DNA of 36,550 bases. It comes from an uncultured virus (IMG/VR IMGVR_UViG_3300021087_000006) (taxonomy: Duplodnaviria > Heunggongvirae > Uroviricota > Caudoviricetes). Below are positions 2-28,726 of the stretch, in pieces. Where the stretch lies: IMG/VR virus record IMGVR_UViG_3300021087_000006. The stretch is one strand, 5' to 3'. Made by a program: the position numbers and the translations under genes. Each line of letters starts with the position of its first letter. Position 1 is the first letter of the stretch. The notes beneath the pieces were generated by a model. The model was not told the origin of the DNA. It made no database searches and worked only from the letters and a program-made list of their open reading frames with translations.

Positions 2-277
2 AATCCAGTTACTAACCCTCCAGCTACAAGTTCTGTGACACGCCCGACTATTTCACTCAACCCCGGACCTGCTTACCAGTCTGGGTCTCAAGGTTTTACA
101 AGACAACCCGGAAGAACTACAACAGGATTGAGTGGTGGCTCTTTGCAGATGCCTTTTCCCGGAATGGGCAAGCCAGCTTACACGACCACGACGGGCAAGC
201 CCGCTGGTAGGACTCAAACTCGTCGTCCAAACATAGCAATGAACCAATCTCGACCTACACAACAACAACTATTCTGA
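2..277 (+). CDS. 5'-truncated Pro/Thr/Gly/Gln-rich hypothetical protein ending in QQQLF
   Basis: Frame is open from window position 2 to TGA at 275-277; low-complexity sequence. Confidence 0.6.
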   Translation, partial: NPVTNPPATSSVTRPTISLNPGPAYQSGSQGFTRQPGRTTTGLSGGSLQMPFPGMGKPAYTTTTGKPAGRTQTRRPNIAMNQSRPTQQQLF

Positions 278-8610: not shown

Positions 8611-8619
8611 TTAAATAAC

Positions 8620-8649: not shown

Positions 8650-8684
8650 ACTAAGTACACACATAGCAATAAGGAAGGTAACAC

Positions 8685-9032
8685 ATGAGTACAATAATCA
8701 CCATCTACCATCAGGGTAACTCGACACTTTTTAATGACTTCGATCCTGATACAGCAACACTCAAGCTGGCATACTCTTATCTTGATGACTCTTGGGAAGA
8801 AGATGACTGGATAGATCCTCCAATGTTCTTGGAGGGAGTGTTTCGTGACAACAACGCTGGTGCAGGAGGTCATGAACTAAATGTACAACATTGCACACGC
8901 TCGCTAAGTGATGGTGATGTGGTAGGACTACCCGATGGATTTGGATACTGGACAGTATGTGCTATGGGTTGGTCAGAAGTAACTGTTGACGAAGTTGAGC
9001 AGGCTCTCAACAGAAACATCGTAATGTCATGA
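8685..9032 (+). CDS. hypothetical protein (RSLSxGDVV motif, YodL-like)
   Basis: SD AAGGAAGG; TRSLSDGDVVGL. Confidence 0.75.
   Translation: MSTIITIYHQGNSTLFNDFDPDTATLKLAYSYLDDSWEEDDWIDPPMFLEGVFRDNNAGAGGHELNVQHCTRSLSDGDVVGLPDGFGYWTVCAMGWSEVTVDEVEQALNRNIVMS
9014..9027 (+). repeat. AAACATCGTAATGT motif copy 3 (one base before ATG 9029)
   Basis: Exact match. Confidence 0.95.
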
Positions 9033-9634: not shown

Positions 9635-9666
9635 ATTAACAACCAATAGGAAGGTAACAACAACAC

Positions 9667-11866: not shown

Positions 11867-12386
11867 AGTAGAACAAGACAGATTACAAAACATCATTGAG
11901 TTGATTAACAACCCAAAGACACAAAACGTGAATAAGAACGAGATGATTTTACATCTTGAAAGCCTTGCCAACACAAGGAGCAAGTCTCATCATGTCGAAG
12001 CGTACCGGAGCATTATTGCCAAGTCCGAGATATGGGAAATATGGGGTTGCGATCATTGTGACGTTAAGTATCCATATTATGAGATTATTGCAGAAGAACA
12101 TGCGAAAGGACTTCGTGAAGCAGTTGGGATGTTCACATTCGTAGAGACAGGTAACTGGAGTCCAGCGAAATGCACGGACTACGCAAACATAATTAGTGAA
12201 CATTCTTACCTGTGCTGGAGTTGTGCAGAGGACTATCTCATTGATAATGGCGTTGAGCCGAACTATGAGCGTGAACCGATTATCGAAGCGTTGTTAGAGC
12301 CATTGACAGAAAACAGTCTAGGCATCTACACCAAGTTCATGACCGAATACATGGAAGAAAAGGAGAGGGCTAATGCCGACTTATGA
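11859..12386 (+). CDS. hypothetical protein with CxxC pairs
   Basis: Start reassigned to 11859 (SD AAGGAGAGG); CDHC and CWSC. Confidence 0.7.
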   Translation: MPEVEQDRLQNIIELINNPKTQNVNKNEMILHLESLANTRSKSHHVEAYRSIIAKSEIWEIWGCDHCDVKYPYYEIIAEEHAKGLREAVGMFTFVETGNWSPAKCTDYANIISEHSYLCWSCAEDYLIDNGVEPNYEREPIIEALLEPLTENSLGIYTKFMTEYMEEKERANADL

Positions 12387-12714
12387 AGATAGCAATTTAC
12401 AACAAAGCAATTCGCAACAACGCATGTTTGAATATCAAAAATATATACCAGAAGCAAGTGGTCATTACTTCACTGAACATTTACCTGATGGTTGGGATAC
12501 ATGGGAACATGAAGAACTAGAGAAGTGGTGTGAGGATCATGTTTGGCAACCATTTGAATACGATGATGTTCATTGGGTGTTTGAACAAGCAGACAATCTT
12601 GCAATATCTATCCACAGGTGTGTGGAAGAAGCAACCAAACCGTTGCATGAGGAGATAGCACGCCTCAACGATTCAATTCGTGGACTAGCGGAACTAGCGA
12701 AAAGAGGGGGATAA
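12373..12714 (+). CDS. hypothetical protein
   Basis: SD AAGGAGAGG. Confidence 0.7.
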   Translation: MPTYEDSNLQQSNSQQRMFEYQKYIPEASGHYFTEHLPDGWDTWEHEELEKWCEDHVWQPFEYDDVHWVFEQADNLAISIHRCVEEATKPLHEEIARLNDSIRGLAELAKRGG

Positions 12715-12848: not shown

Positions 12849-13012
12849 TGTTTCAAAACATCGTAATGTCCCTACTTGGATTTACTAATCCACTATGGGA
12901 GTACATAATTGCACCAGTAGCGCTGTGGGGTTTTGGTCTTGCAGTTGGATGGGGACTGGCAAGACACGAAATAAGAGAAATGGAAGAATTAATATGGGGG
13001 GAAGATGACTGA
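12848..13012 (+). CDS. 54-aa membrane protein (not in ORF track)
   Basis: MFQNIVMSLLG...IIAPVALWGFGLAVGWGLA. Confidence 0.6.
   Translation: MFQNIVMSLLGFTNPLWEYIIAPVALWGFGLAVGWGLARHEIREMEELIWGEDD
12856..12869 (+). repeat. AAACATCGTAATGT motif copy 6
   Basis: Exact match. Confidence 0.95.
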
Positions 13013-13463
13013 ACAATACGAACAACAAACTCTATTTGATGTCTCGAAGTATGAGAAATTGGATGGATCAGGAAAGGTAACTGAACAACCAACAGAAGAC
13101 GTAGTTGCTCAGTCTCTCATGCAGACAGACTACAACCAGTACTACTCTCGTATGGTTCATCTGAATGAAGTTGACTACCTGATTTCTCACAACATTGACT
13201 ACGAGGAAGGTGACCACGTAGAGATTAGCGTTCACATGAATTTCTTTGATTCACAAGATGCTTACGACAACTACCAACTCTCGGATGAGTTCGGTGGCGA
13301 CCACATGATTAGTCATATCCGATTAGACAAAGAGAGTATAGCTGGCACTTTGGAGATAGAACAGTTGGAAGAAATCATTAAATGGAAGAAGCAAGTTGAC
13401 TTGGAGTGGGAGATTAAACGTCTTACTCAAGAACTAAACAAAGTAAAGGAAGGGGAGTACTAA
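13005..13463 (+). CDS. acidic hypothetical protein with N-terminal QQTLF
   Basis: Coupled ORF. Confidence 0.7.
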   Translation: MTEQYEQQTLFDVSKYEKLDGSGKVTEQPTEDVVAQSLMQTDYNQYYSRMVHLNEVDYLISHNIDYEEGDHVEISVHMNFFDSQDAYDNYQLSDEFGGDHMISHIRLDKESIAGTLEIEQLEEIIKWKKQVDLEWEIKRLTQELNKVKEGEY

Positions 13464-13657
13464 TGGGACACGCAGACTCACAAGCATCAAGACCAGCACC
13501 ACCAACAAGAAAAGAATTGATGGAGCAAAGAGATAAAGATGCCGTTAGACTTAGACAGCGATGGGCAGAAGCCAAACTAGAAAAAGAGATACGAATACAG
13601 GAGACATTAAAATATGCGAATAGAAGAATTAGCGAGCGAAGTAGCAAAACTAGATAG
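13463..13657 (+). CDS. small basic helical protein
   Basis: SD AGGGGAG; TAATG overlap. Confidence 0.55.
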   Translation: MGHADSQASRPAPPTRKELMEQRDKDAVRLRQRWAEAKLEKEIRIQETLKYANRRISERSSKTR

Positions 13658-13973: not shown

Positions 13974-13983
13974 GCTGTACTAA

Positions 13984-13997
13984 AAACATCGTAATGT
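13984..13997 (+). repeat. AAACATCGTAATGT motif copy 7 (intergenic)
   Basis: Exact match. Confidence 0.95.
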
Positions 13998-14094
13998 ATT
14001 GAGCTTTAAGACTCGCTTTATGGGTGTATATCTATATATATGCGGAAACCTATATTTATTATTATTTTGATTTTGTGAATTTTTCACAAGTGAA

Positions 14095-14110
14095 TCGTAC
14101 AAGTGTTCGA
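14095..14110. promoter_or_regulatory. putative actinobacterial LexA (SOS) box
   Basis: TCGTAC-AAGT-GTTCGA, one mismatch from TCGAAC-N4-GTTCGA, in a 500-bp intergenic region. Confidence 0.5.
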
Positions 14111-14130
14111 TTCTCTGAGCTGGGAATTTT

Positions 14131-14392
14131 CCTTGATTTTTCGGTATTTCCTCGTAGAAGCCTTCTAAGACGTTTCCAGTACTAATTTGGTGTAGTTATA
14201 CCTGAATGGGTATTGATGAGTTTAGAGATACCTGTACGCCTCTCTATCGGGAGATTACAAGTACTAGCTGGTTGCTGATAGCAATATAAAAAACATCGTA
14301 ATGTCATCGAAAAACCTTGATTTTTCGGGGTTTTATTAACACTCAAATAACCTGAAAAAACCTCGATTTTCCTTGATAAATCAGGGTTTTTT
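14131..14392. repeat. CCTTGATTTTTCGG direct repeats and associated inverted repeats
   Basis: 14131-14144 equals 14315-14328; hairpins CGAAAAA/TTTTTCG (14308-14327) and AAAAAACC..GATTT/AAATC..GGTTTTTT (14355-14392). Confidence 0.7.
14291..14304 (+). repeat. AAACATCGTAATGT motif copy 8 (intergenic)
   Basis: Exact match. Confidence 0.95.
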
Positions 14393-14473
14393 GGTAGCGA
14401 ATAGCAATAAATTCCTTATAGACTGAGGGTACACACAACAGGGTAAGAAAAGCCCTAAAAGGAGATACACATT

Positions 14474-14938
14474 ATGAGTATCAAATTAAACAATATGGGT
14501 ACGCCAGTTATTTGGCTAGCTCGTGAAGGTTGGGGAGGGGAGCGACCATTCATCGGATTGGTTGTTGCCTACCTCTTCAGTTCTCATCACAATTATGTGG
14601 TGTGGAATATGTCATCTCAAGACGGTGAGTCTTGGGATTGTTCACATGGTGATTACGTTCATGAATTGTCAGAAGCTGTTGACATATTCAATGACCGTGC
14701 GAAATTCATTTGTGAAACAGCGCAATGTATGAAAGCAAAATTCAAGCGTGAAGAACGTGAGCTTGCTGAGTGGTTGGCGGATCAGGAAAAGCGCCAAGCT
14801 CAAGACGGTGGCATCATCCATCTGAGTCCCGAAGGAAATTTCTGTGACGTGTGCGGTGTCGAAATGACATCAGGGAACACATCAATGATGCTTACCGCTA
14901 CGTGCGGAAATTGTAATTCAGTAGAGAGGGGTTACTAA
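14474..14938 (+). CDS. hypothetical protein with a C-terminal CxxC..CxxC zinc ribbon
   Basis: SD AAGGAG; CDVC...CGNC. Confidence 0.75.
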   Translation: MSIKLNNMGTPVIWLAREGWGGERPFIGLVVAYLFSSHHNYVVWNMSSQDGESWDCSHGDYVHELSEAVDIFNDRAKFICETAQCMKAKFKREERELAEWLADQEKRQAQDGGIIHLSPEGNFCDVCGVEMTSGNTSMMLTATCGNCNSVERGY

Positions 14939-15198: not shown

Positions 15199-15557
15199 TG
15201 ACTGAGGTATTAGCACCAGCAGTATACGAAGCGTGGAAATTGTTTTCTTCATCGAAGTCAGTTCGGGAGATCGCCAAGCGATTTCCTGAGCTGGACATTT
15301 TTCCATCTTCATGTATCCACGATATGTACGTCATTGATCGGGACGTGATCTTCGTTCAGATTCTCTCGAAGGATGGAATGAGCTACAAAGAGTATGCGTA
15401 CGTAATTCCAATGAATTGCTCTCGTACTCATGGAGTACTCTTCGATCTTCGCAAAGCAATGTTCGAGACTTGCTCATTGGGCAAGGCTCTGCAAATACTC
15501 AAAGCCAATTTTGAATATGAGTTGATTGGTGAGTTCACATTAGGAGCGCAAGTATGA
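15198..15557 (+). CDS. hypothetical protein
   Basis: TAATG overlap, SD GGGAGG. Confidence 0.7.
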   Translation: MTEVLAPAVYEAWKLFSSSKSVREIAKRFPELDIFPSSCIHDMYVIDRDVIFVQILSKDGMSYKEYAYVIPMNCSRTHGVLFDLRKAMFETCSLGKALQILKANFEYELIGEFTLGAQV

Positions 15558-17122
15558 ACAACAAATTAGATGATCTGCTCGCAGGTCTTACTGAACAAAC
15601 TGAAGGAGCTACTGAGGTTCTGCCCAAGCGAGAAATCGTTCGGGTAGAACCTGAAGGTTCTCCATTTGAGTTGTATGAATTTCAGAATGAGGCTCTCGAT
15701 CATGCTCTTGAAAAAAAGAGAAGTTTGTGTGGTCTCGAAATGGGATTGGGCAAGACTCCGATCATGGCACATGCATCGTTGGCATGTGTCAAAGCTGGTG
15801 TGTCACCAATACTCGTAGTTGTGCCACCATCACTTCGACTCAACACTCGAATTGAGTTCGAGAGATTCTGTCCCGAGCTATCTACCGAGATTCTTCTTGG
15901 TCGTAAGCCTCATGAGATTCCAGATGTCGATGTCCTAATCATGGGTGACACATCTGTGAACGATTGGGCAGATGCTTTGGTCGAACATAAAATCCAATCC
16001 ATAATTTGTGATGAAGCTCATCGCTACAAGAATCCAAAAGCTCAGAGGTCGCAAGGTCTCTTGAGAATTTCTAGATCATTACCTGATGATGGTCTACGAC
16101 TCTTGTGTAGTGGCACGTTCACAACTAATGGTCGACCACAGGAACTAGCTGTGCCATTGCAAATCATTTCAAGAACTAGTGATCTTATGAATGGAAAGGT
16201 CTACGAAGATCCGATAGACAATTTCCAGCACACTAAAGATTTCTTGAATCGCTACTCGCCTCCCGATGGAAAAGGGTTTGGTGGTCGAGCGCCAGCAGTA
16301 CAACTACTACCTGAGCTACATGAGAGACTGGGCAATTACGCTCACTACCATCGCAAGCTACGGTCTGAAGTTACTGACCTACCTAACAAAGCTCGTTCGA
16401 TAGTTTTCATCGAGCCTGATAAAAAGGTCGAGAAGAAATACATCGAAGCTGAAGAAGATTTACGAAGTTACCTAAAGGGTGAAGGTCGTAATCGTTCTCA
16501 GATTGAGAGAGCATTTCGAGCAGAGACTTTGGTGAAGTTAGGTGTACTACGGAAGCTCTGTGGTCTTATGAAAGTTGAGTCAACATGCAAGTACGCACAA
16601 GACTTGATGGACATGGGCGAGAAAGTTTTCATCGTCACTTACTACAAAGACGAAGCCAACATGATTGCTGAGAAATTAAATGCAGTAAAAATAGTTGGTG
16701 GTATGTCAGATCATGCCAAGCAACAATCTGTCGAGAGATTCTCAAAAGATGTGGATGCTCTTGTGGGTAATCAAGTTAGTGCTGGTGTTGGGTTCACATT
16801 GCATGGAGCAGAGAAGATGGATGATGGTTCATTCTCTGATGCAAAGTGTCGCCATGTCATAACTCATAGTTTGGCGTGGCACTCATCTGATCTCCAGCAA
16901 TGCGAGGATCGTATTCACAGAATTGGTCAGAACCAAGAAGTTATTTCGAGCATCGAGATAGCTGGCATGACTGATCCAAACAGACAAAGTATTGACATAC
17001 ACGTTTGGGGATTGATCGAAGCCAAGTACGACCATACGGCAATGATACTTGATGGCAGAGAAGCTGATCTCGTAGACATTGACGATATTCATAATCACCT
17101 AATAGATATTTACTCAAACTAA
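15554..17122 (+). CDS. SNF2-family (SF2) helicase/ATPase, HARP-like
   Basis: LYEFQ, EMGLGKT, VVVPPSL, DEAH, SGT, AGVGFTL and QCEDRIHRIGQ. Confidence 0.92.
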   Translation: MNNKLDDLLAGLTEQTEGATEVLPKREIVRVEPEGSPFELYEFQNEALDHALEKKRSLCGLEMGLGKTPIMAHASLACVKAGVSPILVVVPPSLRLNTRIEFERFCPELSTEILLGRKPHEIPDVDVLIMGDTSVNDWADALVEHKIQSIICDEAHRYKNPKAQRSQGLLRISRSLPDDGLRLLCSGTFTTNGRPQELAVPLQIISRTSDLMNGKVYEDPIDNFQHTKDFLNRYSPPDGKGFGGRAPAVQLLPELHERLGNYAHYHRKLRSEVTDLPNKARSIVFIEPDKKVEKKYIEAEEDLRSYLKGEGRNRSQIERAFRAETLVKLGVLRKLCGLMKVESTCKYAQDLMDMGEKVFIVTYYKDEANMIAEKLNAVKIVGGMSDHAKQQSVERFSKDVDALVGNQVSAGVGFTLHGAEKMDDGSFSDAKCRHVITHSLAWHSSDLQQCEDRIHRIGQNQEVISSIEIAGMTDPNRQSIDIHVWGLIEAKYDHTAMILDGREADLVDIDDIHNHLIDIYSN

Positions 17123-19164: not shown

Positions 19165-19992
19165 CTAAATTAAATCTTTAGCCACATGTTTTAATGCCTT
19201 ACTTTCTACTGGCATTATTAGCCCAAAGGGGTAACAGGACTTACCAAATGCCCACCATTTAGATGGTGTAACCCAAACGGGTGCTTCTGCACCTTGAAAG
19301 CGCACATGGACGGGATCTACTTTAGCATGTTTAAAAGCGTTAATAGTCTTCTGTAAATGCTCACTACCTAAAACTATCCCGTTAGGTATGTCATTAGTTA
19401 GTTTTTCTTTTTTAGGAATAACACTTTCAACCTTATGGCTCTTACCTTCTATTGGTTTCATGAACATACTACTAGTGCTCAGTATTTGGGGTTGCCACGC
19501 AATTCTATTAGAAGTAAGACTAATACTAACGAAAGCGTTTGCTATAGCATTCTGGGCAGAGTCCAAGTGCTCCTCATCCTTTAGAAGGTTTAGAAGGTTT
19601 TTAACATCATCTCTTCCTAAAAGGAAGTGACGGCCAGCACCATCTCCAAGTCCCTCATCAATACAATCGACATCAGCTATATCAGCATCTTTGTAGTAGT
19701 TTACAGGCCGTTCTAGTCTAACGTAATAACCCCCACACTTATATAAGTCAGTAGCGGTTAATCGGATAGCTTGACCATCTTCAACTTCTAAAAGGGTCAT
19801 TTTGATAGTGTCTAAGAGCATCTCAGACTTTCGGTCTTTGCTAGCAAACTCGCTAACAAACCTTAAACCCCTCGCAAGTTCTGAGCGGTTAATTTGAAAC
19901 TCAACAAGGCTACCACTTAAGCTAACATTGTTTGCCCAAGCCTCGTCAAAACTTTCCCGAAATCGGGCTTTGTTTAATTCTGGAAACTTCAT
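19165..19992 (-). CDS. DNA polymerase III beta-clamp (DnaN)-like protein, apparently two domains
   Basis: FASKD...L..I....LTATDLYK (central-domain ATD motif) and HL...I....V...F.GAEAPV...GLIMPV C-terminus; SD GAAAGG before ATG 19992. Confidence 0.75.
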   Translation of the reverse strand: MKFPELNKARFRESFDEAWANNVSLSGSLVEFQINRSELARGLRFVSEFASKDRKSEMLLDTIKMTLLEVEDGQAIRLTATDLYKCGGYYVRLERPVNYYKDADIADVDCIDEGLGDGAGRHFLLGRDDVKNLLNLLKDEEHLDSAQNAIANAFVSISLTSNRIAWQPQILSTSSMFMKPIEGKSHKVESVIPKKEKLTNDIPNGIVLGSEHLQKTINAFKHAKVDPVHVRFQGAEAPVWVTPSKWWAFGKSCYPFGLIMPVESKALKHVAKDLI

Positions 19993-20134
19993 ATAATTAT
20001 GAACCTTTCTTAGATATTTACTCCTTAACAAGACTTTTGTCAAGGCGCTCTAAATTCAAGCCGAAGTATTTGACCTACGGTCTTCGGCACGATGCTGCCG
20101 GTAGGCATCGCCGCGTTCATAATTAGTTGTTAAC

Positions 20135-20163
20135 AACATAACAAGCGTCCAACCCTTTTGCAA
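20135..20163 (-). promoter_or_regulatory. promoter for the clamp-like gene
   Basis: Minus strand TTGCAA, 17 nt, (TG)TATGTT. Confidence 0.55.
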
Positions 20164-20183
20164 CCATGTGTCATAATGTTTAT

Positions 20184-20939
20184 ATGGGTATTAAAAACTA
20201 TGTCAAAAAAGGCATAGAAGGAATGTGGGAACACGGTGGTTGGCGAAACACGAGTTACGGAAGCAACACAGAACTTGTGCCTATTGACTACTTTGACGAG
20301 ATGCCTTCTTTCAATGAGCCCTACCGTCGAGCAGGGGATGTTAACAACCTAAGCGTTGATATGGCACTGTACGCTAATACGGAAGAGGATATCGCTGACG
20401 TGCGTAGAAGCCATAAGGTATTTTCAGAAATCCAAGAAGAACTCAAGCAGGACATGAGTGAGAGAGGCTTAGACGAACCCATCATGATTACGTACGACCA
20501 TGATGCATCAGAGGGCCACGCACACGAAGAGAGTATGAAAGCGCATGAGAATTATGGAGTCACACACGCCACTGGGAGGGTATTGCTGGGTGAGGGTAAT
20601 CACAGACTTGCCGCTGCAAGGGATTTAGGTTGGGAAGCTATACCTGCCCGTGTGGTCAGAGGTCGTGTTGCAGCAGAAAGATTTAACCAAGAAGCTAAAA
20701 TTGAGGCAATGGGCGGTTTCGACGCTCGAGGTATACCTAGCAGAGCGGCTAGAGAAGAGCACGGAAAATACACCAAGAGTGTCGGAGAGAAAAAGCAACC
20801 TGCGAAGTACATAGGCAGTGAAGCTAGTCCTTCAGATATTGATATACCCATAATGCCCCATGGACCACACTCGCCTGAAGGTCCTGTGTCACCTGACCAA
20901 TTCACAGTTTTTCCCAAAAAAGTACGTAGAAGTAACTAA
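20184..20939 (+). CDS. ParB/Srx N-terminal-like domain protein (leaderless)
   Basis: DMSERGLDEPIMI...LGEGNHRLAAARDLGWEAIPARV; TGT-CATAAT, 6 nt, ATG 20184. Confidence 0.8.
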   Translation: MGIKNYVKKGIEGMWEHGGWRNTSYGSNTELVPIDYFDEMPSFNEPYRRAGDVNNLSVDMALYANTEEDIADVRRSHKVFSEIQEELKQDMSERGLDEPIMITYDHDASEGHAHEESMKAHENYGVTHATGRVLLGEGNHRLAAARDLGWEAIPARVVRGRVAAERFNQEAKIEAMGGFDARGIPSRAAREEHGKYTKSVGEKKQPAKYIGSEASPSDIDIPIMPHGPHSPEGPVSPDQFTVFPKKVRRSN

Positions 20940-20947
20940 GCAATCAG

Positions 20948-21340
20948 GTGACAGTTAATTCCGACCAGTTTGAGAATCACTCAATAGATGGTAAGGGCGA
21001 TTGCTTCGGTTATTGCATGAAAGGGGCTAAAGACTCTCTCATGGGCGAAGATGCGGATACTAAGTTTGTGCATGGCACTTCCAAGCTAATTGGGCCACAT
21101 GCGTGGATAGAGACCCCAGAAGGTTATGTGAAGGACTGGCAGACCAATGCCTCTCATAGAACAGCTAATCTTAGTACCGCCAAAACAGGTACGCCTAGGG
21201 ATGAGTTCTATGAAATGCACGGGGCAGAAGCCCATCAGACGTTTACAGGCGGAGAATTGTTCAGAATGGGCAATAAAGCTGGAAATATGGGGCCGTTTAC
21301 TCCAGAAGAGTTAGAAGCCCACGACTACGGTAGAATATAG
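20948..21340 (+). CDS. putative transglutaminase/papain-like Cys-His-Asp protein
   Basis: GDCF...VHG...PHAWIE....VKD pattern. Confidence 0.6.
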   Translation: MTVNSDQFENHSIDGKGDCFGYCMKGAKDSLMGEDADTKFVHGTSKLIGPHAWIETPEGYVKDWQTNASHRTANLSTAKTGTPRDEFYEMHGAEAHQTFTGGELFRMGNKAGNMGPFTPEELEAHDYGRI

Positions 21341-21342
21341 TT

Positions 21343-21822
21343 ATGGGTAAAATGAAAGACTACCTGTTCGATCAGGTAAGTGATTTGCACGAAGAGACAC
21401 AAGATATCATTCTTGGTGGTGTCCCAATGTACCATGGCTCTATGCACAGCTTCAAAAAGGGTGACATTCTTACTGGTGAAGACTCAAATATGTTTAAGGC
21501 CTATGATTACGCTGATTCAGATACACACGATCGTGTCTTTGCTACTACAAAGTTACAATTCGCACAATTCTTTGCTGAAGGATCAAGAGCTAACTCTCCC
21601 TTCCCCACCATGGGGGACGACCAAGTACGCGTTTATGAGGTTGAGCCTTATAGCGACAAACCTATGGGCATTGACGTTAACCTGCCCGGTAATCCCGAGA
21701 GCTTCACCTCAGACAAGTTCAGGGTAACAGATGTAGTCATGGATAAAAGTCATGAAGATTGGCCTGATGTGGTTGAAGGTCCTGACGGTATGCGGAGTGA
21801 CCAGTTTGCAGGGCCTATCTAG
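21343..21822 (+). CDS. Arr-like NAD+-dependent ADP-ribosyltransferase
   Basis: YHGS...GDIL, VFAT, RVYEVEP and D.N.PGNPESF.S..FRV parallel Arr (YHGT..GDLL..IYFT..VYEVEP..DPN..PGNPTRSYRS); leaderless TAGAAT, 6 nt. Confidence 0.8.
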   Translation: MGKMKDYLFDQVSDLHEETQDIILGGVPMYHGSMHSFKKGDILTGEDSNMFKAYDYADSDTHDRVFATTKLQFAQFFAEGSRANSPFPTMGDDQVRVYEVEPYSDKPMGIDVNLPGNPESFTSDKFRVTDVVMDKSHEDWPDVVEGPDGMRSDQFAGPI

Positions 21823-21953
21823 TTTTTAAGACTTAGTTCCCGCAAGTCTAATAAGAAGTCTTGAATCTCATCGGCAGAGAATAACTCTCTATTAGCCGTT
21901 AACTCTAAGAAGGATTCAATCTCGTCGATCAAAGTGTTTGCTATATCAGTCAT
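21819..21953 (-). CDS. 44-aa acidic helical protein (not in ORF track)
   Basis: MTDIANTLIDEIESFLELTANRELFSADEIQDFLLDLRELSLKN; leaderless TGA-TACACT, 6 nt. Confidence 0.7.
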   Translation of the reverse strand: MTDIANTLIDEIESFLELTANRELFSADEIQDFLLDLRELSLKN

Positions 21954-22008
21954 GATCCTAGTGTATCAGCATATGGTAAACTTAATCTATATCAGTTAGG
22001 GGATAACA

Positions 22009-22428
22009 ATGCCAGTAGGACCAGATGTAACTAGAGCAGGAAACGTGCGAGATTCGAGGCACGGTTTAGACGCTAGTGGAAGACCCATTGCACAACCTGC
22101 TAATGCACATCATGAAGCAGTTCCTTTTACTAAAAACACGATGGGCTACACTGACTGCCCAACTTGTGACACACCTGACATATACAACTCGGTGGATGAT
22201 GACGTAGTAGGTTGCCTCGGATGTGGTATGGGTGGGGAAGAGATGTCACATGAAGATTTTGAACAAACATTAGAGAGCCAAGGCCGTTATAATTTTACTA
22301 GAGGTGTTCCAAGTTCTGAGCAGGTTCAGTTCCATAGTGCAATAAACAATCGTGAATGGGCGGGTTTAATGCAGTTGCCTTATCCACCAGAGGGTGAAGA
22401 GATGTTCGATCCTAGAAGGGATAAATAA
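22009..22428 (+). CDS. zinc-ribbon-containing hypothetical protein (MPVGPD N-terminus)
   Basis: TGG-TAAACT promoter at 21977, SD AGGGGA; CPTC...CLGC. Confidence 0.75.
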   Translation: MPVGPDVTRAGNVRDSRHGLDASGRPIAQPANAHHEAVPFTKNTMGYTDCPTCDTPDIYNSVDDDVVGCLGCGMGGEEMSHEDFEQTLESQGRYNFTRGVPSSEQVQFHSAINNREWAGLMQLPYPPEGEEMFDPRRDK

Positions 22429-23525
22429 TGCCAATAGGACCAGATACAGACAGAGATGGGAACCCAAAGACGGGTGACCCATTCATACAGTATCCAAACA
22501 GATATGGGGACCCAACGACGGCTGGCCCAGAGATACCGTATAGACGGGATGTGGACAACCCTAATATAGAGACCCACCGAGCCGACCATTCTTGGTCTAA
22601 CAAAGACAAATCTATGCGTATAGGCGGACTCGCTGGTCACAGATCAGAAATGCCTATGTCCCGATACCAGCAGATTCGTGATGTCGCTTCTATTGCTGGA
22701 CCCTATGCAGGAAATATTGCAGGAAATATAGACACGTCAGCGTACCCCACAAAGACTAGTTCTGGTACTGACATTCCAAAGGAAGATATCTTAAAGTGGG
22801 CACACATGGAAAAAGAGACTGAACCTTTGGACGTGGATATGGATATGGAGGATACCGCCAAATACGTTGCACTTCAGGATCGTGTCGATGCGTCAAGTGA
22901 TCGGATGAATGCTATAGAAGCCCGTGAGGGGGATGCTTCAAGTCAGGAAGAATATAATGCCATTAGGGCCGACTGGCACAAAGAGTATGATACAGAATTT
23001 AAACCTCCGGCTAAGGAAACTACATGGCTTGACGACGATGGCAGACTGACCTTAGGGGCAAACCGTGAGGGTTACACAGACTTGCACGATATGCGTGTGA
23101 GCCAAGCCCAATGGTCTCTTGGTAATACCAGCAGCTACCCCATTACGGAGCCAATACCAGATAACTGGACGGCAAAGGACATTACTGAAGAACACTCAAT
23201 AAAGAAAGACCGCTTAGGTCACGCTCTTACAAGGCTACAGAACGTAGGTTCACTGACTCACACCCCCATGGCAGATGACACATTTTGGCAAGCATCCTCC
23301 GGAAGAAACGAACCCAAAACTCCAGAACTAGACGAAAGTTTACAAACTTGGGATGAGTACCTTAAGTACAAGGGAGAACAAACTCCTCCAGAAGAAAAGA
23401 CGACCGGATTATTTGGGGAAACTAAGCCACACGAAGCAGATTTAGAAAGTGATTGGACCACCGCTAGTGACCTTTTGCACGATGAGGCACTCATGAAAAG
23501 AGCAAAGGACTCGTTTTACCACTAA
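22428..23525 (+). CDS. acidic hypothetical protein (MPIGPD N-terminus)
   Basis: 365-aa ORF, TAATG overlap. Confidence 0.75.
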   Translation: MPIGPDTDRDGNPKTGDPFIQYPNRYGDPTTAGPEIPYRRDVDNPNIETHRADHSWSNKDKSMRIGGLAGHRSEMPMSRYQQIRDVASIAGPYAGNIAGNIDTSAYPTKTSSGTDIPKEDILKWAHMEKETEPLDVDMDMEDTAKYVALQDRVDASSDRMNAIEAREGDASSQEEYNAIRADWHKEYDTEFKPPAKETTWLDDDGRLTLGANREGYTDLHDMRVSQAQWSLGNTSSYPITEPIPDNWTAKDITEEHSIKKDRLGHALTRLQNVGSLTHTPMADDTFWQASSGRNEPKTPELDESLQTWDEYLKYKGEQTPPEEKTTGLFGETKPHEADLESDWTTASDLLHDEALMKRAKDSFYH

Positions 23526-23545
23526 TCCAAGAGGGGATTTTCAAC

Positions 23546-23863
23546 ATGGATAACGACTGGATGTTTGATGCTGGTGATGAGTGGGACGGACAAATGGACC
23601 CAATGGACGTGGCTAAAGAAAACAGATTAATTGAAGAGGGTCTTACTACATCTGAATTAGACATTACGATACCTGACACCATTGCGGAAGGTAATGCACA
23701 GACGATAGATCACCATGTGAATAAAATAAAAGACGATTGGAAGGCAGTGAAGAGTGTCCTGCACAGGGCGCAATTTGACTTTCACTTTGAAGCCTCCGAA
23801 GATCCCCTCGAAGACGCAAAGTGGGAAGATCTTGGAAAGAACGACCCACCAGTGCTGAAATAG
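23546..23863 (+). CDS. acidic hypothetical protein
   Basis: SD GAGGGG. Confidence 0.7.
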   Translation: MDNDWMFDAGDEWDGQMDPMDVAKENRLIEEGLTTSELDITIPDTIAEGNAQTIDHHVNKIKDDWKAVKSVLHRAQFDFHFEASEDPLEDAKWEDLGKNDPPVLK

Positions 23864-23865
23864 CT

Positions 23866-24735
23866 TTAAGCCTTCTCTAAAGCCTCTACTCTTGCTACCA
23901 GATCATTAATTATGGCACTACAGCCACATCCACATGAGAACTCTTCTGTTTCCTCAGCTTTTACCTTAGCGGCTTCCTCAGCAGCTTTCTGAGCTTCTAC
24001 ACGCCTTCTAATTTCGTCCCAGTCAATTTCAGGTGCTGGGGCTTCGGGACCAGTGTCTTCTGCTGGCTGTGGGCTTAAATCTAGTAGACAGTACTCGTCA
24101 ATGTCCATTGACATGTCTTTAGGGGCTACAGCGGCTCCGCCATAGTAGGCATCCAACCACGCTGTCACCACTTGGGTGTTTTCACCAACTTTTATGTTGT
24201 GGGATACCCATTCACCACCACCTACTCGTGCTCTACAGTATCCTTCATCAAAGTTTGCCTCAACTTCAAACAGTACGAAGTCTCCGCCAATCTTGATAGA
24301 TCCTACAGGTATAGAATCTCCCCAGTTACGCTTCTGGTTATTATGGTAGATGTACATACCAATGGGCAGTTCACCATTTTTAGTGTGCCCGTACCAAGTA
24401 CGAAATGAAAAACCGTCTGGTCCGGGTGCTCTATTGCCGTGTGCGTAAGACTGTCCTTTTGAGTTCTTCCAACGAAGGTCGGCAAAACCTAAGGTCTTAC
24501 CTGTACTATCAGAGTTCCAACTTGGGTTGGCCTTTACTTTGAAAGCCATCCGTACATGTCGAGAAGGTGTAACGTCTTTTTTCATACTACAGCCGTAGTG
24601 TGAGTCTTTTTTGTACAGTAGACGTAGTCCTGCGTGGCCTTGTGTGCTTGATCCTGTTTTATGAGCGTAGTGAAGCTTGCCGTGCCACGCTGATTCCCAG
24701 CCGTCTTCAAATCCCTCTTGTACTAAATTTCTCAT
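23866..24735 (-). CDS. polysaccharide-lyase (PL14-like) domain protein with a C-terminal coiled-coil tail
   Basis: GKTLGF...DGFSFRTW...YIYH...WGD...YYGG....D..ID pattern; start reassigned to leaderless ATG 24735 (TGT-TATACT, 6 nt). Confidence 0.65.
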   Translation of the reverse strand: MRNLVQEGFEDGWESAWHGKLHYAHKTGSSTQGHAGLRLLYKKDSHYGCSMKKDVTPSRHVRMAFKVKANPSWNSDSTGKTLGFADLRWKNSKGQSYAHGNRAPGPDGFSFRTWYGHTKNGELPIGMYIYHNNQKRNWGDSIPVGSIKIGGDFVLFEVEANFDEGYCRARVGGGEWVSHNIKVGENTQVVTAWLDAYYGGAAVAPKDMSMDIDEYCLLDLSPQPAEDTGPEAPAPEIDWDEIRRRVEAQKAAEEAAKVKAEETEEFSCGCGCSAIINDLVARVEALEKA

Positions 24736-24777
24736 TATTATAGTATAACAGTTAGCACATAATGGTATTATTAAGTC

Positions 24778-24954
24778 ATGGCAGGATACAAAACCACTAA
24801 GTGGAGACAATCAGGAAACACACAGTTTGGTAGGAGTGCCGGTGCCCATGACCGCAGGTTGGGCTGGAAGACTGCTAAAACGTACTCCTACAAGATGCGT
24901 CCTTCAGGAACTGCTAAAACAGCAAAGATATATAAACGATACAAGACTAAGTAA
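24778..24954 (+). CDS. 58-aa highly basic protein (not in ORF track)
   Basis: MAGYKTTKWRQSGNTQFGR...KIYKRYKTK; leaderless TGG-TATTAT, 6 nt. Confidence 0.7.
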   Translation: MAGYKTTKWRQSGNTQFGRSAGAHDRRLGWKTAKTYSYKMRPSGTAKTAKIYKRYKTK

Positions 24955-24956
24955 AT

Positions 24957-25349
24957 ATGAAAGAGCATCTTCAGTTAGAACTTTTCAAACCAGTTAGAGA
25001 CCTTTACAGCAACGTAAACCCAAATGAGGCTGATGATGTCGAGGATAACCAGTTTGCCACAGAACCGGGTGAGTCCTACCGCAGAACTGAGACTACTAGA
25101 GAGATGATGGATCGTAAAGTACGAGAGACTAAAGGTGGCACTCATGACAACCCAGAACCCGGATACAAAGGTAAACAATGGGTAGGGGGCACGTTCTATA
25201 GTGACATGGAGGCAAGGGGCGTGAAGAATCCCGTAGGGTACGACCCCGACTTAAACATGGTTATCGACGGGCATCACCGTGTAGCCGCCATGCACGAAAT
25301 TAATCCAGACGCTGAACTGTCAATATACAACTTTAGAACGAAATATTAA
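24957..25349 (+). CDS. ParB/Srx-like domain protein with N-terminal HLQLELF
   Basis: DMEARGVKNPV...VIDGHHRVAAM. Confidence 0.78.
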   Translation: MKEHLQLELFKPVRDLYSNVNPNEADDVEDNQFATEPGESYRRTETTREMMDRKVRETKGGTHDNPEPGYKGKQWVGGTFYSDMEARGVKNPVGYDPDLNMVIDGHHRVAAMHEINPDAELSIYNFRTKY

Positions 25350-25381
25350 GTACGCACCGTCAAGTCTGGTAAGATTGTAGT

Positions 25382-25687
25382 ATGACAAGAAGAGGCGATA
25401 TGCGTGTGCACCTACAGGGCAAGCTTTTTGGGCAGACAGTTGATGTGCCCTATGAGGCAAACCCGGGTGGTCGTGCAGATGTAGCTGAACGTTTGTCTAA
25501 TATCGGCAACATTGATTTCGACCCCGGAACACCTGATTGTCCCGGATGTGACGCTCCCCTATCTGAAGAGTATTACATGGAAAGATATAGTGGACCAGTT
25601 GATGATGAAGGTACCATGCCCACAATAGAATGCCCATCTTGCGAAGCGTATAGTCACCCCGACAGTATCCAAGACCACCTCCTCTAA
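25382..25687 (+). CDS. zinc-ribbon protein with N-terminal HLQGKLF (leaderless)
   Basis: CPGC...CPSC; TGG-TAAGAT, 6 nt. Confidence 0.72.
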   Translation: MTRRGDMRVHLQGKLFGQTVDVPYEANPGGRADVAERLSNIGNIDFDPGTPDCPGCDAPLSEEYYMERYSGPVDDEGTMPTIECPSCEAYSHPDSIQDHLL

Positions 25688-26088: not shown

Positions 26089-26277
26089 ATGAGAGAGCAA
26101 GAACACCAACGGGGTAGAGCCATACACCACCACGACAAACATGCAGCCCACAAGGCAGGACATCGGCCAGACGATCCGCATGGCGTAACAGCCATGAGCG
26201 CCGAGGAGGAAGAGGCACAAGCCGACTATCAGGTCAGCGTTCATCTTGAAGAAGAGCGTATGAAAGAGGGCAGATGA
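26089..26277 (+). CDS. His-rich small protein, paralog 1
   Basis: First 34 aa nearly identical to the next ORF. Confidence 0.75.
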   Translation: MREQEHQRGRAIHHHDKHAAHKAGHRPDDPHGVTAMSAEEEEAQADYQVSVHLEEERMKEGR

Positions 26278-26483
26278 GAGATCAAGAACATGAACGCGGT
26301 GCGTCACTACACCACCACGACAAACACGCCGCACACAAGGCAGGACACCGTCCAGATGATCCACATGGTGTAACAGGTCCTGCAACGGCCGAAGAACTAA
26401 TGAGTCTCGATCCTCAAGCCTTAGACCTGCTCGGTAAGGCGATGGAAACAGGTTTTAACATGCTCGATGAGGCGATGGACTAA
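26274..26483 (+). CDS. His-rich small protein, paralog 2
   Basis: ATGA overlap; shared HHHDKHAAHKAGHRPDDPHGVT. Confidence 0.75.
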   Translation: MRDQEHERGASLHHHDKHAAHKAGHRPDDPHGVTGPATAEELMSLDPQALDLLGKAMETGFNMLDEAMD

Positions 26484-26806: not shown

Positions 26807-28726
26807 ATGTCACTTTCGCCAGAATTTGTAAAACGTTACTCCGGTAAAGAACCCCCATGGGGATTTGACGGACTTGGATACGTGGTTTATAAACGCACCT
26901 ATGCTCGGGTGACAGATGAGAAGCAGAACATCACGGAGGAGTGGTGGCAGACGCTACAGCGTGTCGTCGATGGAGCAGAGGCTATTGGTGCGGGACTGAC
27001 TAAGGACGAGTCGGAACGTTTGTTCGACTACATGTTCAACCTCAAGGCTTCTGTTGGTGGTCGGATGCTGTGGCAACTAGGAACACCCAACAATGAACGA
27101 CTGGGCGGCGACTCACTCGTCAACTGTTGGTTCGTGGACATTACTAAGCCCGAAGATTTCTCGTGGATGTTTGAGAGACTGATGCTTGGTGGAGGCGTAG
27201 GATTTTCAGTAACACACCCAGAGTCACTTGGTGTTGTCAGGCAGGGAACAGCCCAGCACCTTAATGAGGCAGACGCTGACTTCATAGTTCCTGACAAGCG
27301 CGAGGGTTGGGCACAGGCCGTCCTATTAGCCATCAAGACTTACTTGGGAACAGAAGATGACACAGATACCATTACGTATAACACGAGCCTCATACGCCCT
27401 GCTGGTGCTCCTATAAGGACATTCGGAGGCAAGGCTTCTGGACCCGGAATACTTGTTGAGGGTATAGAAAAGATTTCGACCATACTGAATGGTGCCGTTG
27501 GCAGGTTTCTTACATCTGTAGAGGTTCTTGACATAGGCAACATTATTGGATCAGTAGTTGTGGCTGGCAACGTCAGACGCTCTGCTGAAATAGCTTTAGG
27601 GCTTCCTAACGATATCGACTTCTTAAGTGCTAAGAGGTGGGACTTGGGAACCATACCAATGCACCGAGCCATGTCTAACAACTCCGTAGTGGTTGAGGAC
27701 ATACAGCAACTGCCGGAGGAATTTTGGGAGGGGTATCATGGTAATGGCGAGCCTTATGGCATGTTCAACCTTCAAACATCTCGCACGTATGGCAGAACCG
27801 GAGAAGTTCTCCCAGACAAAACCATCACAGGTACAAACCCATGTGCTGAGATAGGTTTAGCAAATCGTGAGTCTTGTAATCTAAGTGAGATATTTCTTCC
27901 CAACGTTGAATCCAAAGAAGAACTCATAGACATCGCCAAGCTGTTGTACAAGGTTCAGAAGGCAATAGCGTCCATGCCATACCTTGACAGAGAGTCCGAT
28001 GATATCACTAGTCAGAACATGAGGCTGGGTCTTGGTGTAACGGGCGTGGCACAGGCACACAAACAAATGGAATGGCTAGATGACACCTATCGTGCTTTAA
28101 GGGAGTTTGATAAAGAGTGGTCTATGCAGAACGATTGGCCAGAGTCTAAGAGACTCACGACTGTCAAGCCCAGTGGAACACTATCCTTGTTAGCTGGGGT
28201 GACACCCGGAGTACATCCCGGATACAGCAAGCACCACATTCGGAGGGTTCGTATGTCTGTTGGAGATCCCCTGCTTCAGTATTGTTCCGACATGGGATAC
28301 AACGTTGAGTGGGTCAAGAACCTCGATGGCACAGTATCTGACCGTACTAAATTGGTTGAGTTTCCATGCACATTTCCTGAAGGCACAGTCTTAGCTGAGG
28401 ACCTGACTGCTATACAACAAATGCAACTACAAGCACAGTTACAGAGGAAATGGGCAGACAATGCCGTAAGTGTAACAATCTACGTAAAAGAGGGTGAACT
28501 AGAGGAAGTGCAGGAGTATTTAAAGAGCAACTGGGTAAACATGAAATCAGTATCCTTCCTTCTACATTCCGACCATGGATTTGAACAGGCTCCTCTGGAA
28601 GCCATAAGTAATGCAAAGTATGCTCAACTAGTAAGTAAAGTTAGACAAACTGAAGTTGGACCACAAGGTGGTGTCAGTGAATTGCTAGATGACGACTGTG
28701 TTAACGGGTCGTGCCCAATTAGGTAG
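26807..28726 (+). CDS. nrdJ: class II (adenosylcobalamin-dependent) ribonucleotide reductase, monomeric RTPR type
   Basis: VYKRTYAR, VNCW, GGGVGFS, GNVRRSAEI, TNPCAEI, CNLSE, TVKPSGT and C-terminal C..GSCPIR. Confidence 0.93.
   Translation: MSLSPEFVKRYSGKEPPWGFDGLGYVVYKRTYARVTDEKQNITEEWWQTLQRVVDGAEAIGAGLTKDESERLFDYMFNLKASVGGRMLWQLGTPNNERLGGDSLVNCWFVDITKPEDFSWMFERLMLGGGVGFSVTHPESLGVVRQGTAQHLNEADADFIVPDKREGWAQAVLLAIKTYLGTEDDTDTITYNTSLIRPAGAPIRTFGGKASGPGILVEGIEKISTILNGAVGRFLTSVEVLDIGNIIGSVVVAGNVRRSAEIALGLPNDIDFLSAKRWDLGTIPMHRAMSNNSVVVEDIQQLPEEFWEGYHGNGEPYGMFNLQTSRTYGRTGEVLPDKTITGTNPCAEIGLANRESCNLSEIFLPNVESKEELIDIAKLLYKVQKAIASMPYLDRESDDITSQNMRLGLGVTGVAQAHKQMEWLDDTYRALREFDKEWSMQNDWPESKRLTTVKPSGTLSLLAGVTPGVHPGYSKHHIRRVRMSVGDPLLQYCSDMGYNVEWVKNLDGTVSDRTKLVEFPCTFPEGTVLAEDLTAIQQMQLQAQLQRKWADNAVSVTIYVKEGELEEVQEYLKSNWVNMKSVSFLLHSDHGFEQAPLEAISNAKYAQLVSKVRQTEVGPQGGVSELLDDDCVNGSCPIR

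What the first reader, a model, noticed from the sequence alone, without database searches (positions are those of the whole stretch)
19165..25429. Phage beta-clamp homologue together with several proteins bearing terminal QxxLF clamp-binding motifs
Seen: a DnaN-like gene (19165-19992) and QLELF (24972-24986, ParB-like), QGKLF (25415-25429, zinc ribbon), QQTLF (13023-13037) and C-terminal QQQLF (260-274). The two adjacent genes share HLQxxLF. Established: QL[SD]LF is the bacterial beta-clamp-binding consensus. Inference: non-replicative phage proteins dock on the phage or host clamp to hijack or block host replication. Alternatively, HLQxxLF is a variant of the QF tag.
Basis: partly seen in the sequence, partly recalled or inferred. 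Interest (0 to 1): 0.7.

Follow-up and report, generated by a model that had tools for sequence, protein, structure and literature searches.

The report
Clamp-hook tags and a truncated phage clamp
An uncultured phage of actinobacteria puts a five-residue peptide that looks like the bacterial sliding-clamp docking hook at the very ends of several small unknown proteins, and it also encodes a shortened clamp relative; binding has not been tested.

Summary
All four QxxLF peptides sit where stated. They are the only four in my 69 called proteins, and all four are terminal: three at residues 6-7 and one as the last five residues. Shuffles give about 0.1 terminal cases, and 0 of 1000 shuffles reach four. 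Relaxing the pattern to [QN]xx[LM]F gives 7 of 7 terminal. Control patterns show no such bias.

The "DnaN-like" gene (19165-19992, minus strand) is not a full clamp. It belongs to a family of short phage "Pol III beta-like" proteins. These keep the central beta domain and only the second half of the C-terminal domain. Those are the segments that carry the peptide-contacting residues of E. coli beta.

The two adjacent genes share a 28-residue N-terminal module, M[KR]xHLQxxLF....

Reading the tags as clamp-docking hooks is the best explanation. Precedents are phage Mu MuC and mycobacterial DnaQ. Only near-identical homologues exist, so conservation could not be tested either.

Earlier notes of this scan report similar clamp-plus-QxxLF sets in other phages. 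I did not check them.

The parts
19165..19992 (-). Truncated DnaN (Pol III beta)-like protein, 275 aa. It has the central beta domain plus only the second half of the C-terminal domain, and no domain I.
   Evidence: The window protein itself has no Pfam or PHROG hit. Its only relatives are P0004-P0013. Ten of the 11 family members hit PF02767 (best E 4.1e-6) and PF00712. P0008 reaches 27.5 bits against a cut-off of 27 over the whole central-domain model. It also matches PF02768 model positions 61-114 of 121 only. hhalign places window residues 27-198 on E. coli beta 123-254 (E 0.02). ESM Atlas gives features 0.94 and TM 0.63-0.65 by query. Foldseek on a poor model (pLDDT 41) ranks sliding clamps first: beta clamps in PDB and REQ2/Horus short 'Pol III beta' proteins in BFVD (E 5.1e-4).
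24957..25349 (+). 130-aa protein. It has N-terminal MKEHLQLELF (QLELF at 24972-24986), a polar linker, and a C-terminal part with DGHHR (possibly ParB/Srx-like).
   Evidence: The homologues P0002 (89%) and P0003 (83%) keep residues 1-14 unchanged. No Pfam hit. The ParB lead comes only from Atlas scores of 0.88-0.89.
25400..25687 (+). 95-aa zinc-ribbon protein (CPGC...CPSC) with N-terminal MRVHLQGKLF (QGKLF at 25415-25429). The alternative start is 25382.
   Evidence: AAGAAGAGG lies before ATG 25400. One search shows the 28-residue N-terminal module shared with the upstream gene. One search gives weak zinc-ribbon/DUF7837 hits, all below the cut-off.
13005..13463 (+). 152-aa acidic protein with N-terminal MTEQYEQQTLF (13023-13037). 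It opens the gene run that leads to the Gp157-like gene and the SNF2 helicase.
   Evidence: GGGGGGAAG lies before the ATG. No Pfam or PHROG family.
2..277 (+). C-terminal 91 residues of a protein cut by the window edge. It is a P/T/G/Q-rich flexible tail that ends ...PTQQQLF-stop (260-274).
   Evidence: One search shows 73-93% disorder-promoting residues in five of the six full 15-residue blocks (60% in the fourth). The identity of the protein is unknown because its N-terminus lies outside the window.
12373..12714 (+). 113-aa protein with QQRMF at residues 15-19 (12415-12429). It is a relaxed-motif candidate.
8685..9032 (+). 115-aa protein with NSTLF at residues 12-16 (8718-8732). It is a weaker relaxed-motif candidate.
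23546..23863 (+). 105-aa acidic protein with NDWMF at residues 3-7 (23552-23566). It is a weaker relaxed-motif candidate.
20166..20939 (+). 257-aa protein with ParB-like/DNA-binding PHROG hits, transcribed divergently from the beta-like gene (context).
   Evidence: phrog_21912 E 7e-6, phrog_3264 E 7.7e-5, phrog_4715 E 1.3e-4. No Pfam hit.

Best explanation
The terminal QxxLF peptides are short linear docking tags for a beta-clamp-type peptide cleft. They are exposed at the extreme N-terminus of at least three small proteins and at the extreme C-terminus of one. The most likely receptor is the host DnaN ring, which would bring these proteins to replicating DNA or let them compete with host clamp clients. 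The phage's own truncated beta-like protein is a possible second receptor.

Shown: the motifs exist, they are restricted to termini far beyond chance, and two neighbours share the tag as a portable 28-residue module. Also shown: the phage encodes a beta-fold protein that keeps the cleft-forming segments.

Inferred: that the tags bind any clamp, which clamp they bind, and what follows from binding.
For: 1. Motif statistics: 4 of 4 QxxLF and 7 of 7 [QN]xx[LM]F are terminal, and 0 of 1000 shuffles reach either count. Control patterns with other residues in place of Q show no terminal bias.
2. Two annotated actinophages that carry short beta-like genes give a natural background. REQ2 has 0 QxxLF in 82 proteins. 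Hedwig has no in-frame terminal case in 70 proteins.
3. The sequences match the published consensus. QLELF compares with QL[SD]LF and with the Mor/MuC N-terminal consensus Qx[DE][LM]F. MuC carries QHDLF near its N-terminus (the tested substitutions are H3L and L5A) and QPDLF at its C-terminus, and needs both to bind the clamp (PMC12867686, passages). Mycobacterial DnaQ binds DnaN through a C-terminal Q[Y/L]ALF (PMC11348249, passages).
4. The same peptide works here at either end of a protein and next to polar, probably flexible linkers. This is typical of a docking peptide bound in extended form.
5. The only stretch conserved between the adjacent ParB/Srx-like and zinc-ribbon proteins is the N-terminal module that holds the tag.
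6. The beta-like protein aligns with E. coli beta at most of the cleft residues named in PMC3716654. The pairs are L177/C86, V247/V191, V360/L258, M362/M260, P363/P261 and H175/Y84.
Against: Conservation is untested at useful distance. The only homologues of the 130-aa protein are 83-89% identical. Searches of IMG/VR, cultured phages and metagenome contigs gave only near-identical contigs or nothing.

Only QLELF has the preferred L at position 2. QGKLF, QQTLF and QQQLF match just Q..LF.

Two other actinophages with short beta-like genes carry no such tags, so the tags are not a general companion of that gene.

In the window's beta-like protein three cleft positions are changed: R152 to E57, P242 to H186 and G174 to L83. 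Its structure model is poor (pLDDT 41).

The gene set and the terminal limits in the statistics were chosen after seeing the data.
Confidence: 0.45

Rival explanations
1. The receptor is the phage's own truncated beta-like protein. On this reading it is a free-standing QxxLF-binding module that gathers the tagged phage proteins as a hub, or soaks up host clamp clients as a decoy. It would not be a processivity ring.
For: The family keeps the central domain, the GxFPxxxxIP junction and the last beta-alpha-beta-beta-beta unit ending in hhMPV(R). Those are the segments that hold all ten clamp residues named as peptide contacts in PMC3716654. Domain I and the first half of domain III are absent. 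The tags and the beta-like gene lie in the same genome, within 6 kb of the tagged gene pair.
Against: The window protein has changed three cleft positions (E57, L83, H186). No confident structure was obtained. REQ2 and Hedwig have short beta-like genes but no tags. Whether a 1.5-domain fragment folds or forms a cleft on its own is unknown.
Confidence: 0.2
2. The terminal [QN]xx[LM]F peptide is a docking or sorting signal for another partner. Examples would be a capsid-targeting or injection signal like the shared N-terminal leader of T4 internal proteins (recalled), a protease or adaptor tag, or a hook for another replication or transcription protein.
For: The shared element of the two neighbours is a 28-residue module, longer than a clamp motif. 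Most tags are N-terminal. All tagged proteins are ORFans without a replication annotation. Three of the four core motifs lack the consensus L at position 2.
Against: The same pentapeptide also ends a flexible C-terminal tail exactly at the stop codon. That fits a clamp hook and is odd for an N-terminal leader. I know of no other Q..LF docking system.
Confidence: 0.2
3. There is no shared function. The motifs are chance or are inherited by tandem duplication, and the terminal clustering is an artefact of post-hoc selection.
For: Tandem paralogue pairs are common in this window: 22009/22428 and 26089/26274. The motif has only three fixed residues. The limits were set after inspection.
Against: 0 of 1000 shuffles reach the terminal counts, and matched control patterns show no bias. 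The four core carriers are otherwise unrelated proteins in three separate places. One carries the motif at the opposite terminus.
Confidence: 0.1

Closest known systems
Phage Mu MuC/Mor transcription activators (PMC12867686; abstract and passages read)
   Same: These are small phage proteins that are not replication enzymes. They carry a near-consensus clamp-binding pentapeptide at the extreme N-terminus (QHDLF) and at the C-terminus (QPDLF). The family N-terminal consensus is Qx[DE][LM]F. The tags dock on the host beta clamp.
   Different: The proteins here are unrelated ORFans: a ParB/Srx-like lead, a zinc ribbon and acidic proteins. Their host is actinobacterial, and binding is untested. 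Mu encodes no clamp homologue, to my recollection.
Cellular beta-clamp clients with QL[SD]LF/QxxLF, including mycobacterial DnaQ with C-terminal Q[Y/L]ALF (PMC11348249, passages) and UmuC/Pol II/Pol IV peptides (PMC3716654, passages)
   Same: The pentapeptide form is the same, with a terminal or flexible location. The QQQLF tail ends at the free carboxyl terminus, as in Pol II, Pol IV and DnaQ.
   Different: Most tags here are N-terminal, which among cellular clients is recalled mainly for Hda. The carriers have no known DNA-metabolic domain.
Short phage 'DNA polymerase III beta / sliding clamp' proteins. Seen here: Rhodococcus phage REQ2 Orf51, 266 aa, and Gordonia phage Horus, 238 aa. Other records only partly matched by REQ2 Orf51: Gordonia phage Jace (77% of the query), mycobacteriophage OkiRoe gp47 (42%)
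   Same: REQ2 and Horus are the best structural matches (E 5.1e-4 and 9.7e-4). REQ2 shares the ATD..., FP....(I/L)P and MP(V/I)R signatures.
   Different: Sequence similarity is marginal: P0006 against REQ2 gives E 0.05, and the window protein has no tblastn match in cultured phages. REQ2 adds a Lys/Ala-rich tail. I found no paper on the function of this short family.
T4 gp45 clamp with clients gp43, gp33 and gp55 (recalled; T4 is mentioned as a parallel in PMC12867686)
   Same: A phage-encoded clamp-fold protein occurs together with several phage proteins that share a short terminal hook.
   Different: gp45 is a trimeric ring of two full domains with its own loader. Here the protein has 1.5 beta-type domains, and no loader or polymerase lies in the window.
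Staphylococcus phage Twort Gp168 bound to host beta clamp (PDB 7evp; title seen, biology recalled)
   Same: It is a small phage protein that targets the host clamp.
   Different: I did not check whether Gp168 uses a QxxLF hook.

Membership tests
Bacterial beta sliding clamp DnaN (PF00712 + PF02767 + PF02768) | Three tandem domains, each of two beta-alpha-beta-beta-beta units | tested here: not met
   E. coli DnaN hits all three models end to end. P0008 covers PF02767 at model positions 3-116 but PF02768 only at positions 61-114 of 121. About 58 residues lie between the junction and the last strand. The AF2 secondary structure shows three unit helices.
Bacterial beta sliding clamp DnaN (PF00712 + PF02767 + PF02768) | Significant sequence match to the DnaN domain models | tested here: inconclusive
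   The window protein has 0 hits at E<=1. Ten of 11 family members hit PF02767 (best E 4.1e-6), and in the three members scanned singly only P0008 reaches the cut-off. The link from the window protein to P0004 has E 1.8e-28. A profile against PDB puts DnaN 2avt first at E 0.34.
Bacterial beta sliding clamp DnaN (PF00712 + PF02767 + PF02768) | Beta-clamp fold | tested here: met
   ESM Atlas gives TM 0.63-0.65 by query to DnaN-domain clusters. Foldseek on a low-confidence model ranks sliding clamps first (29 of the 30 rows shown; best E 4.6e-3). In BFVD the short phage beta-like proteins come first (E 5.1e-4). Support is weak because the model has pLDDT 41.
Bacterial beta sliding clamp DnaN (PF00712 + PF02767 + PF02768) | Closed ring around DNA (head-to-tail dimer) | not testable with these tools
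Domain I, which forms half of the dimer interface, is absent.
Bacterial beta sliding clamp DnaN (PF00712 + PF02767 + PF02768) | Hydrophobic peptide cleft between domains II and III | tested here: inconclusive
   Of the residues named in PMC3716654, L177, V247, V360, M362, P363 and H175 align with C86, V191, L258, M260, P261 and Y84. R152, G174, P242 and R246 align with E57, L83, H186 and S190. This rests on alignment only.
Clamp-binding motif (QL[SD]LF / QxxLF) | Pentapeptide matching the consensus | tested here: met
   The motifs are QLELF, QGKLF, QQTLF and QQQLF. The consensus is as quoted in PMC12867686.
Clamp-binding motif (QL[SD]LF / QxxLF) | Exposed position: a terminus or a flexible segment | tested here: met
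   The motifs start at residues 6, 6 and 7, and one forms the last five residues. Flanking blocks hold 60-93% disorder-promoting residues.
Clamp-binding motif (QL[SD]LF / QxxLF) | Conservation of the motif in homologues | tested here: inconclusive
   All 3 sequences of the 130-aa family keep it, but they are 83-89% identical. No distant homologues were found.
Clamp-binding motif (QL[SD]LF / QxxLF) | LF-dependent binding to a clamp | not testable with these tools
ParB/Srx (for the 130-aa protein) | Match to ParB_N/ParBc models | tested here: not met
   No Pfam hit at E<=5. A profile against PDB gave nothing relevant. The only support is the DGHHR motif and Atlas scores of 0.88-0.89.
Short phage Pol III beta-like proteins (REQ2 Orf51 type) | About 175-270 aa, with the central beta domain plus a partial C-terminal domain, encoded by a phage | tested here: met
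   Lengths of the named BFVD matches annotated as Pol III beta range from 173 to 266 aa.

The most novel reading that the evidence does not exclude
The short phage beta-like protein is a minimal QxxLF receptor. Evolution has cut DnaN down to the three units that build the peptide cleft: domain II, the junction and the last unit of domain III. The phage uses this module together with a family of N- and C-terminal QxxLF tags as its own docking system. It may work as a hub that assembles tagged phage proteins, as a decoy that strips clients from the host clamp, or, if four three-unit subunits close a twelve-unit ring, as a clamp of a new architecture.
Probability: 0.15. Interest if true: 0.8.

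Novelty: new variant of a known kind. Interest (0 to 1): 0.5.

Why it matters
If the tags bind a clamp, this phage would show that docking non-replicative proteins on the sliding clamp is a wider phage strategy. So far it has been shown for T4 and, in 2026, for Mu. Here it would use portable N-terminal tags on small, fast-evolving proteins.

It would also give a testable function to the widespread short "Pol III beta" genes of actinophages, which are annotated but unstudied. These genes keep the peptide-cleft part of DnaN and lose the ring-forming part.

Both ideas can be tested with simple peptide-binding assays.

Tried and rejected
Complex prediction of the beta-like protein with the N-terminus of the 130-aa protein was not possible.

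Single-sequence AF2 of the beta-like protein failed (pLDDT 33). With 11 sequences it was still poor (pLDDT 41, pTM 0.46), so no cleft geometry could be read.

Searches for more distant relatives of the tagged proteins and of the phage led nowhere:
- IMG/VR with the 130-aa protein, P0003, the helicase and P0004.
- Cultured phages by tblastn.
- Metagenome contigs, which gave only 98-100% identical contigs L001-L003.
- GTDB genome contigs with the beta-like pair.
- A degenerate DNA pattern for M[KR]xHLQxxLF....D in IMG/VR. It gave 6 loci. Four are ORFs of 12-41 aa and look like chance. Two near-identical loci are a 288-aa ORF of unclear start.

The one IMG/VR contig with a beta-like relative (L004, 5 kb) is too short to test for tags.

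I tested the idea that tags generally accompany short beta-like genes. REQ2 and Hedwig do not support it.

The promoter/terminator scan around the genes was uninformative, with 8 promoter-like sites against 13.8 expected.

I considered the N-terminal domain to be DnaN domain I and rejected this. The central-domain model scores better, and hhalign places it on beta 123-254.

In alignment A4 the MAFFT placement of E. coli residues 320-346 and of the REQ2 C-terminus is visibly wrong. I did not use those columns.

Full report
**What the window is.** The 36.5-kb window (GC about 45%) is part of an uncultured tailed phage.
- It encodes WhiB (3060-3473, PF02467, E 1.1e-9), a DUF932 protein (6988-8052) and an SNF2-type helicase (15554-17122).
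- It also encodes a DUF6011 protein, a class II ribonucleotide reductase (26807-28726) and tail-fibre genes.
- A DpdA/queuine-transglycosylase-like protein lies at 1530-2966 (phrog_887, E 1.6e-34).
- WhiB points to an actinobacterial host. So do the DUF932 relatives: of 525 matching phage records, 190 are Mycobacterium, 116 Streptomyces, 75 Microbacterium, 48 Arthrobacter and 40 Gordonia phages.
- No whole genome is held for the window, and no close relative exists among cultured phages or in IMG/VR.

**The observation.**
- QQQLF (260-274) is the last five residues of a protein whose N-terminus lies outside the window. The 91 residues seen form a P/T/G/Q-rich tail; five of the six full 15-residue blocks have 73-93% disorder-promoting residues.
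- QQTLF is residues 7-11 of ORF 13005-13463.
- QLELF is residues 6-10 of ORF 24957-25349.
- QGKLF lies in the zinc-ribbon ORF. That ORF more likely starts at ATG 25400, which is preceded by AAGAAGAGG. Both neighbours then begin M[KR]xHLQxxLF.
- BLASTP aligns only residues 1-28 of these two proteins (11 of 28 identical, E 0.002 for the single comparison). They share a portable N-terminal module and nothing else.

**Is it more than chance?**
- I called 69 ORFs (11,392 aa; the gene set is my own). They hold exactly four QxxLF, and all four are terminal.
- In residue shuffles the mean is 0.83 occurrences, of which 0.10 are terminal. None of 1000 shuffles reaches four terminal ones. An earlier run with slightly different limits gave 0 of 2000.
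- The relaxed pattern [QN]xx[LM]F gives seven occurrences, all terminal, against 0.31 expected (0 of 1000). It adds QQRMF (12415-12429), NSTLF (8718-8732) and NDWMF (23552-23566).
- Matched controls show no terminal bias (terminal of total): [ED]xxLF 0 of 4, [ST]xxLF 0 of 6, [KR]xxLF 1 of 2, Qxx[IV]F 0 of 1.
- Across all six frames there are 13 QxxLF. The other nine lie outside my called genes.
- Two annotated actinophages give a natural background. REQ2 has none in 82 proteins. Hedwig has no in-frame terminal case in 70 proteins.
- The limits were fixed after seeing the data, so the exact probabilities are soft. The effect is still large.

**The "DnaN-like" gene.** ORF 19165-19992 lies on the minus strand. 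It is 275 aa, the length of the public gene call P0001.
- By itself it hits nothing in Pfam, PHROGs or PDB sequences.
- An exhaustive HMMER search over 1.84 billion representatives found one relative, P0004 (E 1.8e-28, 38% identity). A profile search added nine more.
- Ten of the 11 family members hit PF02767 (best E 4.1e-6) and PF00712 (best E 9.9e-5).
- P0008 reaches 27.5 bits against a cut-off of 27 over the whole central-domain model. It also matches PF02768 only at model positions 61-114 of 121 (E 0.12).
- hhalign places window residues 27-198 on E. coli beta 123-254, including the GxFPxxxxIP junction (E 0.02).
- The ESM Atlas gives feature score 0.94 to viral clusters of about 200 aa with PF02767, and TM 0.63-0.65 by query to DnaN-domain clusters.
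- AF2 models are poor (pLDDT 33 and 41). Even so, Foldseek ranks sliding clamps first in PDB: 29 of the 30 rows shown are clamp entries, best E 4.6e-3.
- In BFVD, Foldseek ranks short phage "Pol III beta" proteins first: REQ2 (266 aa, E 5.1e-4) and Gordonia phage Horus (238 aa, E 9.7e-4). Further annotated Pol III beta entries of 173-250 aa follow at weaker E-values.
- The protein is therefore a real DnaN-fold relative, but of a truncated type. It has the central domain plus only the last beta-alpha-beta-beta-beta unit of the C-terminal domain, and no domain I.
- Proteins annotated as Pol III sliding clamp or processivity factor occur in REQ2, Gordonia phage Jace and mycobacteriophages such as OkiRoe and Gengar. 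The mycobacteriophage matches cover only 42% of REQ2 Orf51, and I did not check their lengths.
- I found no paper on their function.

**The cleft.** The UmuC-beta structure paper (PMC3716654, passages read) names the residues that contact the peptide.
- V247, L177, V360, P242 and M362 line the hydrophobic pocket.
- G174, M362 and P363 contribute backbone contacts.
- R152, R246 and H175 are further contacts.
- All of these lie in segments that the short family retains.
- In my alignment six pair conservatively with the window protein: L177/C86, V247/V191, V360/L258, M362/M260, P363/P261 and H175/Y84.
- Four are changed: R152/E57, G174/L83, P242/H186 and R246/S190. The P0004 clade keeps R152 and P242.
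- I did not use the alignment columns for beta residues 320-346, because they are misaligned.
- The retained part is therefore the part that builds the peptide cleft, while the ring-forming part is lost. Whether a cleft really forms is not shown.

**Reading.** The best explanation is that the terminal QxxLF peptides are docking tags for a beta-clamp-type cleft.
- Phage Mu MuC carries QHDLF near its N-terminus (the tested substitutions are H3L and L5A) and QPDLF at its C-terminus. It needs both to bind host DnaN and to activate late transcription. The Mor/MuC family shows the N-terminal consensus Qx[DE][LM]F (PMC12867686).
- Mycobacterial DnaQ binds DnaN through a C-terminal Q[Y/L]ALF (PMC11348249).
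- Three features fit such a peptide: it appears at either end of unrelated proteins, it sits next to flexible linkers, and it is the only conserved stretch between two neighbours.
- The receptor could be the host ring (I favour this), the phage's truncated beta-like protein, or both.

**What weighs against the reading.**
- Conservation could be checked only in homologues that are 83-89% identical. All three sequences keep MKEHLQLELFKPVR.
- Three of the four core motifs lack the preferred Leu at position 2.
- REQ2 and Hedwig have short beta-like genes but no tags.

**Rivals.**
- A different partner or a sorting signal. The shared module is 28 residues long, and most tags are N-terminal.
- Chance plus tandem duplication. 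Tandem paralogue pairs are frequent here.

**Earlier notes of this scan.** They describe similar sets in other uncultured phages: a phage clamp gene together with several proteins ending in QxxLF (e1-6073149, e1-5764503, e1-6081589). I treated them as leads and tested none of them.

**Verdict.** The clamp homologue is real but truncated. The clamp-docking interpretation is plausible and has good precedent, but it is untested. I rate this a new variant of a known kind, of moderate interest.

Noticed in passing
window 6713-14304 (+): sites at 6713, 8212, 9015, 9622, 11190, 12857, 13985, 14292: There are eight exact copies of AACATCGTAATGT, all on the + strand, against 0.03 expected. The extended consensus is AAAACATCGTAATGTC. 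The copies lie both inside ORFs and between them in the early region. They may be a phage promoter (TAATGT fits a TANNNT -10 element, recalled) or another regulatory site.
   Followed up: partly
window 22009-22428 / 22428-23525, and 26089-26277 / 26274-26483: Two tandem paralogue pairs share their N-termini. The first pair begins MPxGPDxxRxGN. The second begins MR[ED]QEHxRG...HHHDKHAAHKAGHR, a His-rich segment.
   Followed up: no
window 1530-2966 (+): This protein is DpdA/queuine tRNA-ribosyltransferase-like (phrog_887, E 1.6e-34). It suggests 7-deazaguanine modification of the phage DNA. Its own termini carry no QxxLF.
   Followed up: no
window 13973-14474: This 500-bp gene-poor stretch lies ahead of the replication and helicase genes. 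It holds direct repeats (CCTTGATTTTTCGG twice, and two copies of the AACATCGTAATGT site) and inverted repeats. It may be a regulatory region or an origin.
   Followed up: partly
window 21343-21822 (+): There is a weak match to rifampin ADP-ribosyltransferase Arr-ms (E 1.2e-4, 22.7 bits, below the cut-off of 25). This hints at an ADP-ribosyltransferase-like fold.
   Followed up: no
window 34745-35122 (+): This small protein has a PASTA domain (E 6.2e-6) and ends in FPPHFPPHFPPHFE repeats. It lies next to the tail-fibre gene.
   Followed up: no
L015 (Gordonia phage Hedwig) 35639-38512; window 19165-20939: In Hedwig the beta-like region is the N-terminal part of a 339-aa protein annotated as an FtsK-like translocase. 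It sits two genes after a ParB-like nuclease-domain gene. In the window the beta-like gene is transcribed divergently from a ParB-like gene. This may be a recurring pairing.
   Followed up: no
L009 and L014 (IMG/VR), match at 1501-1545: A 288-aa reading frame begins MRLHLQKTLF and is followed by a Cys-rich, basic region. It is unclear whether this Met is the true start or whether the tag is related to the window's.
   Followed up: no
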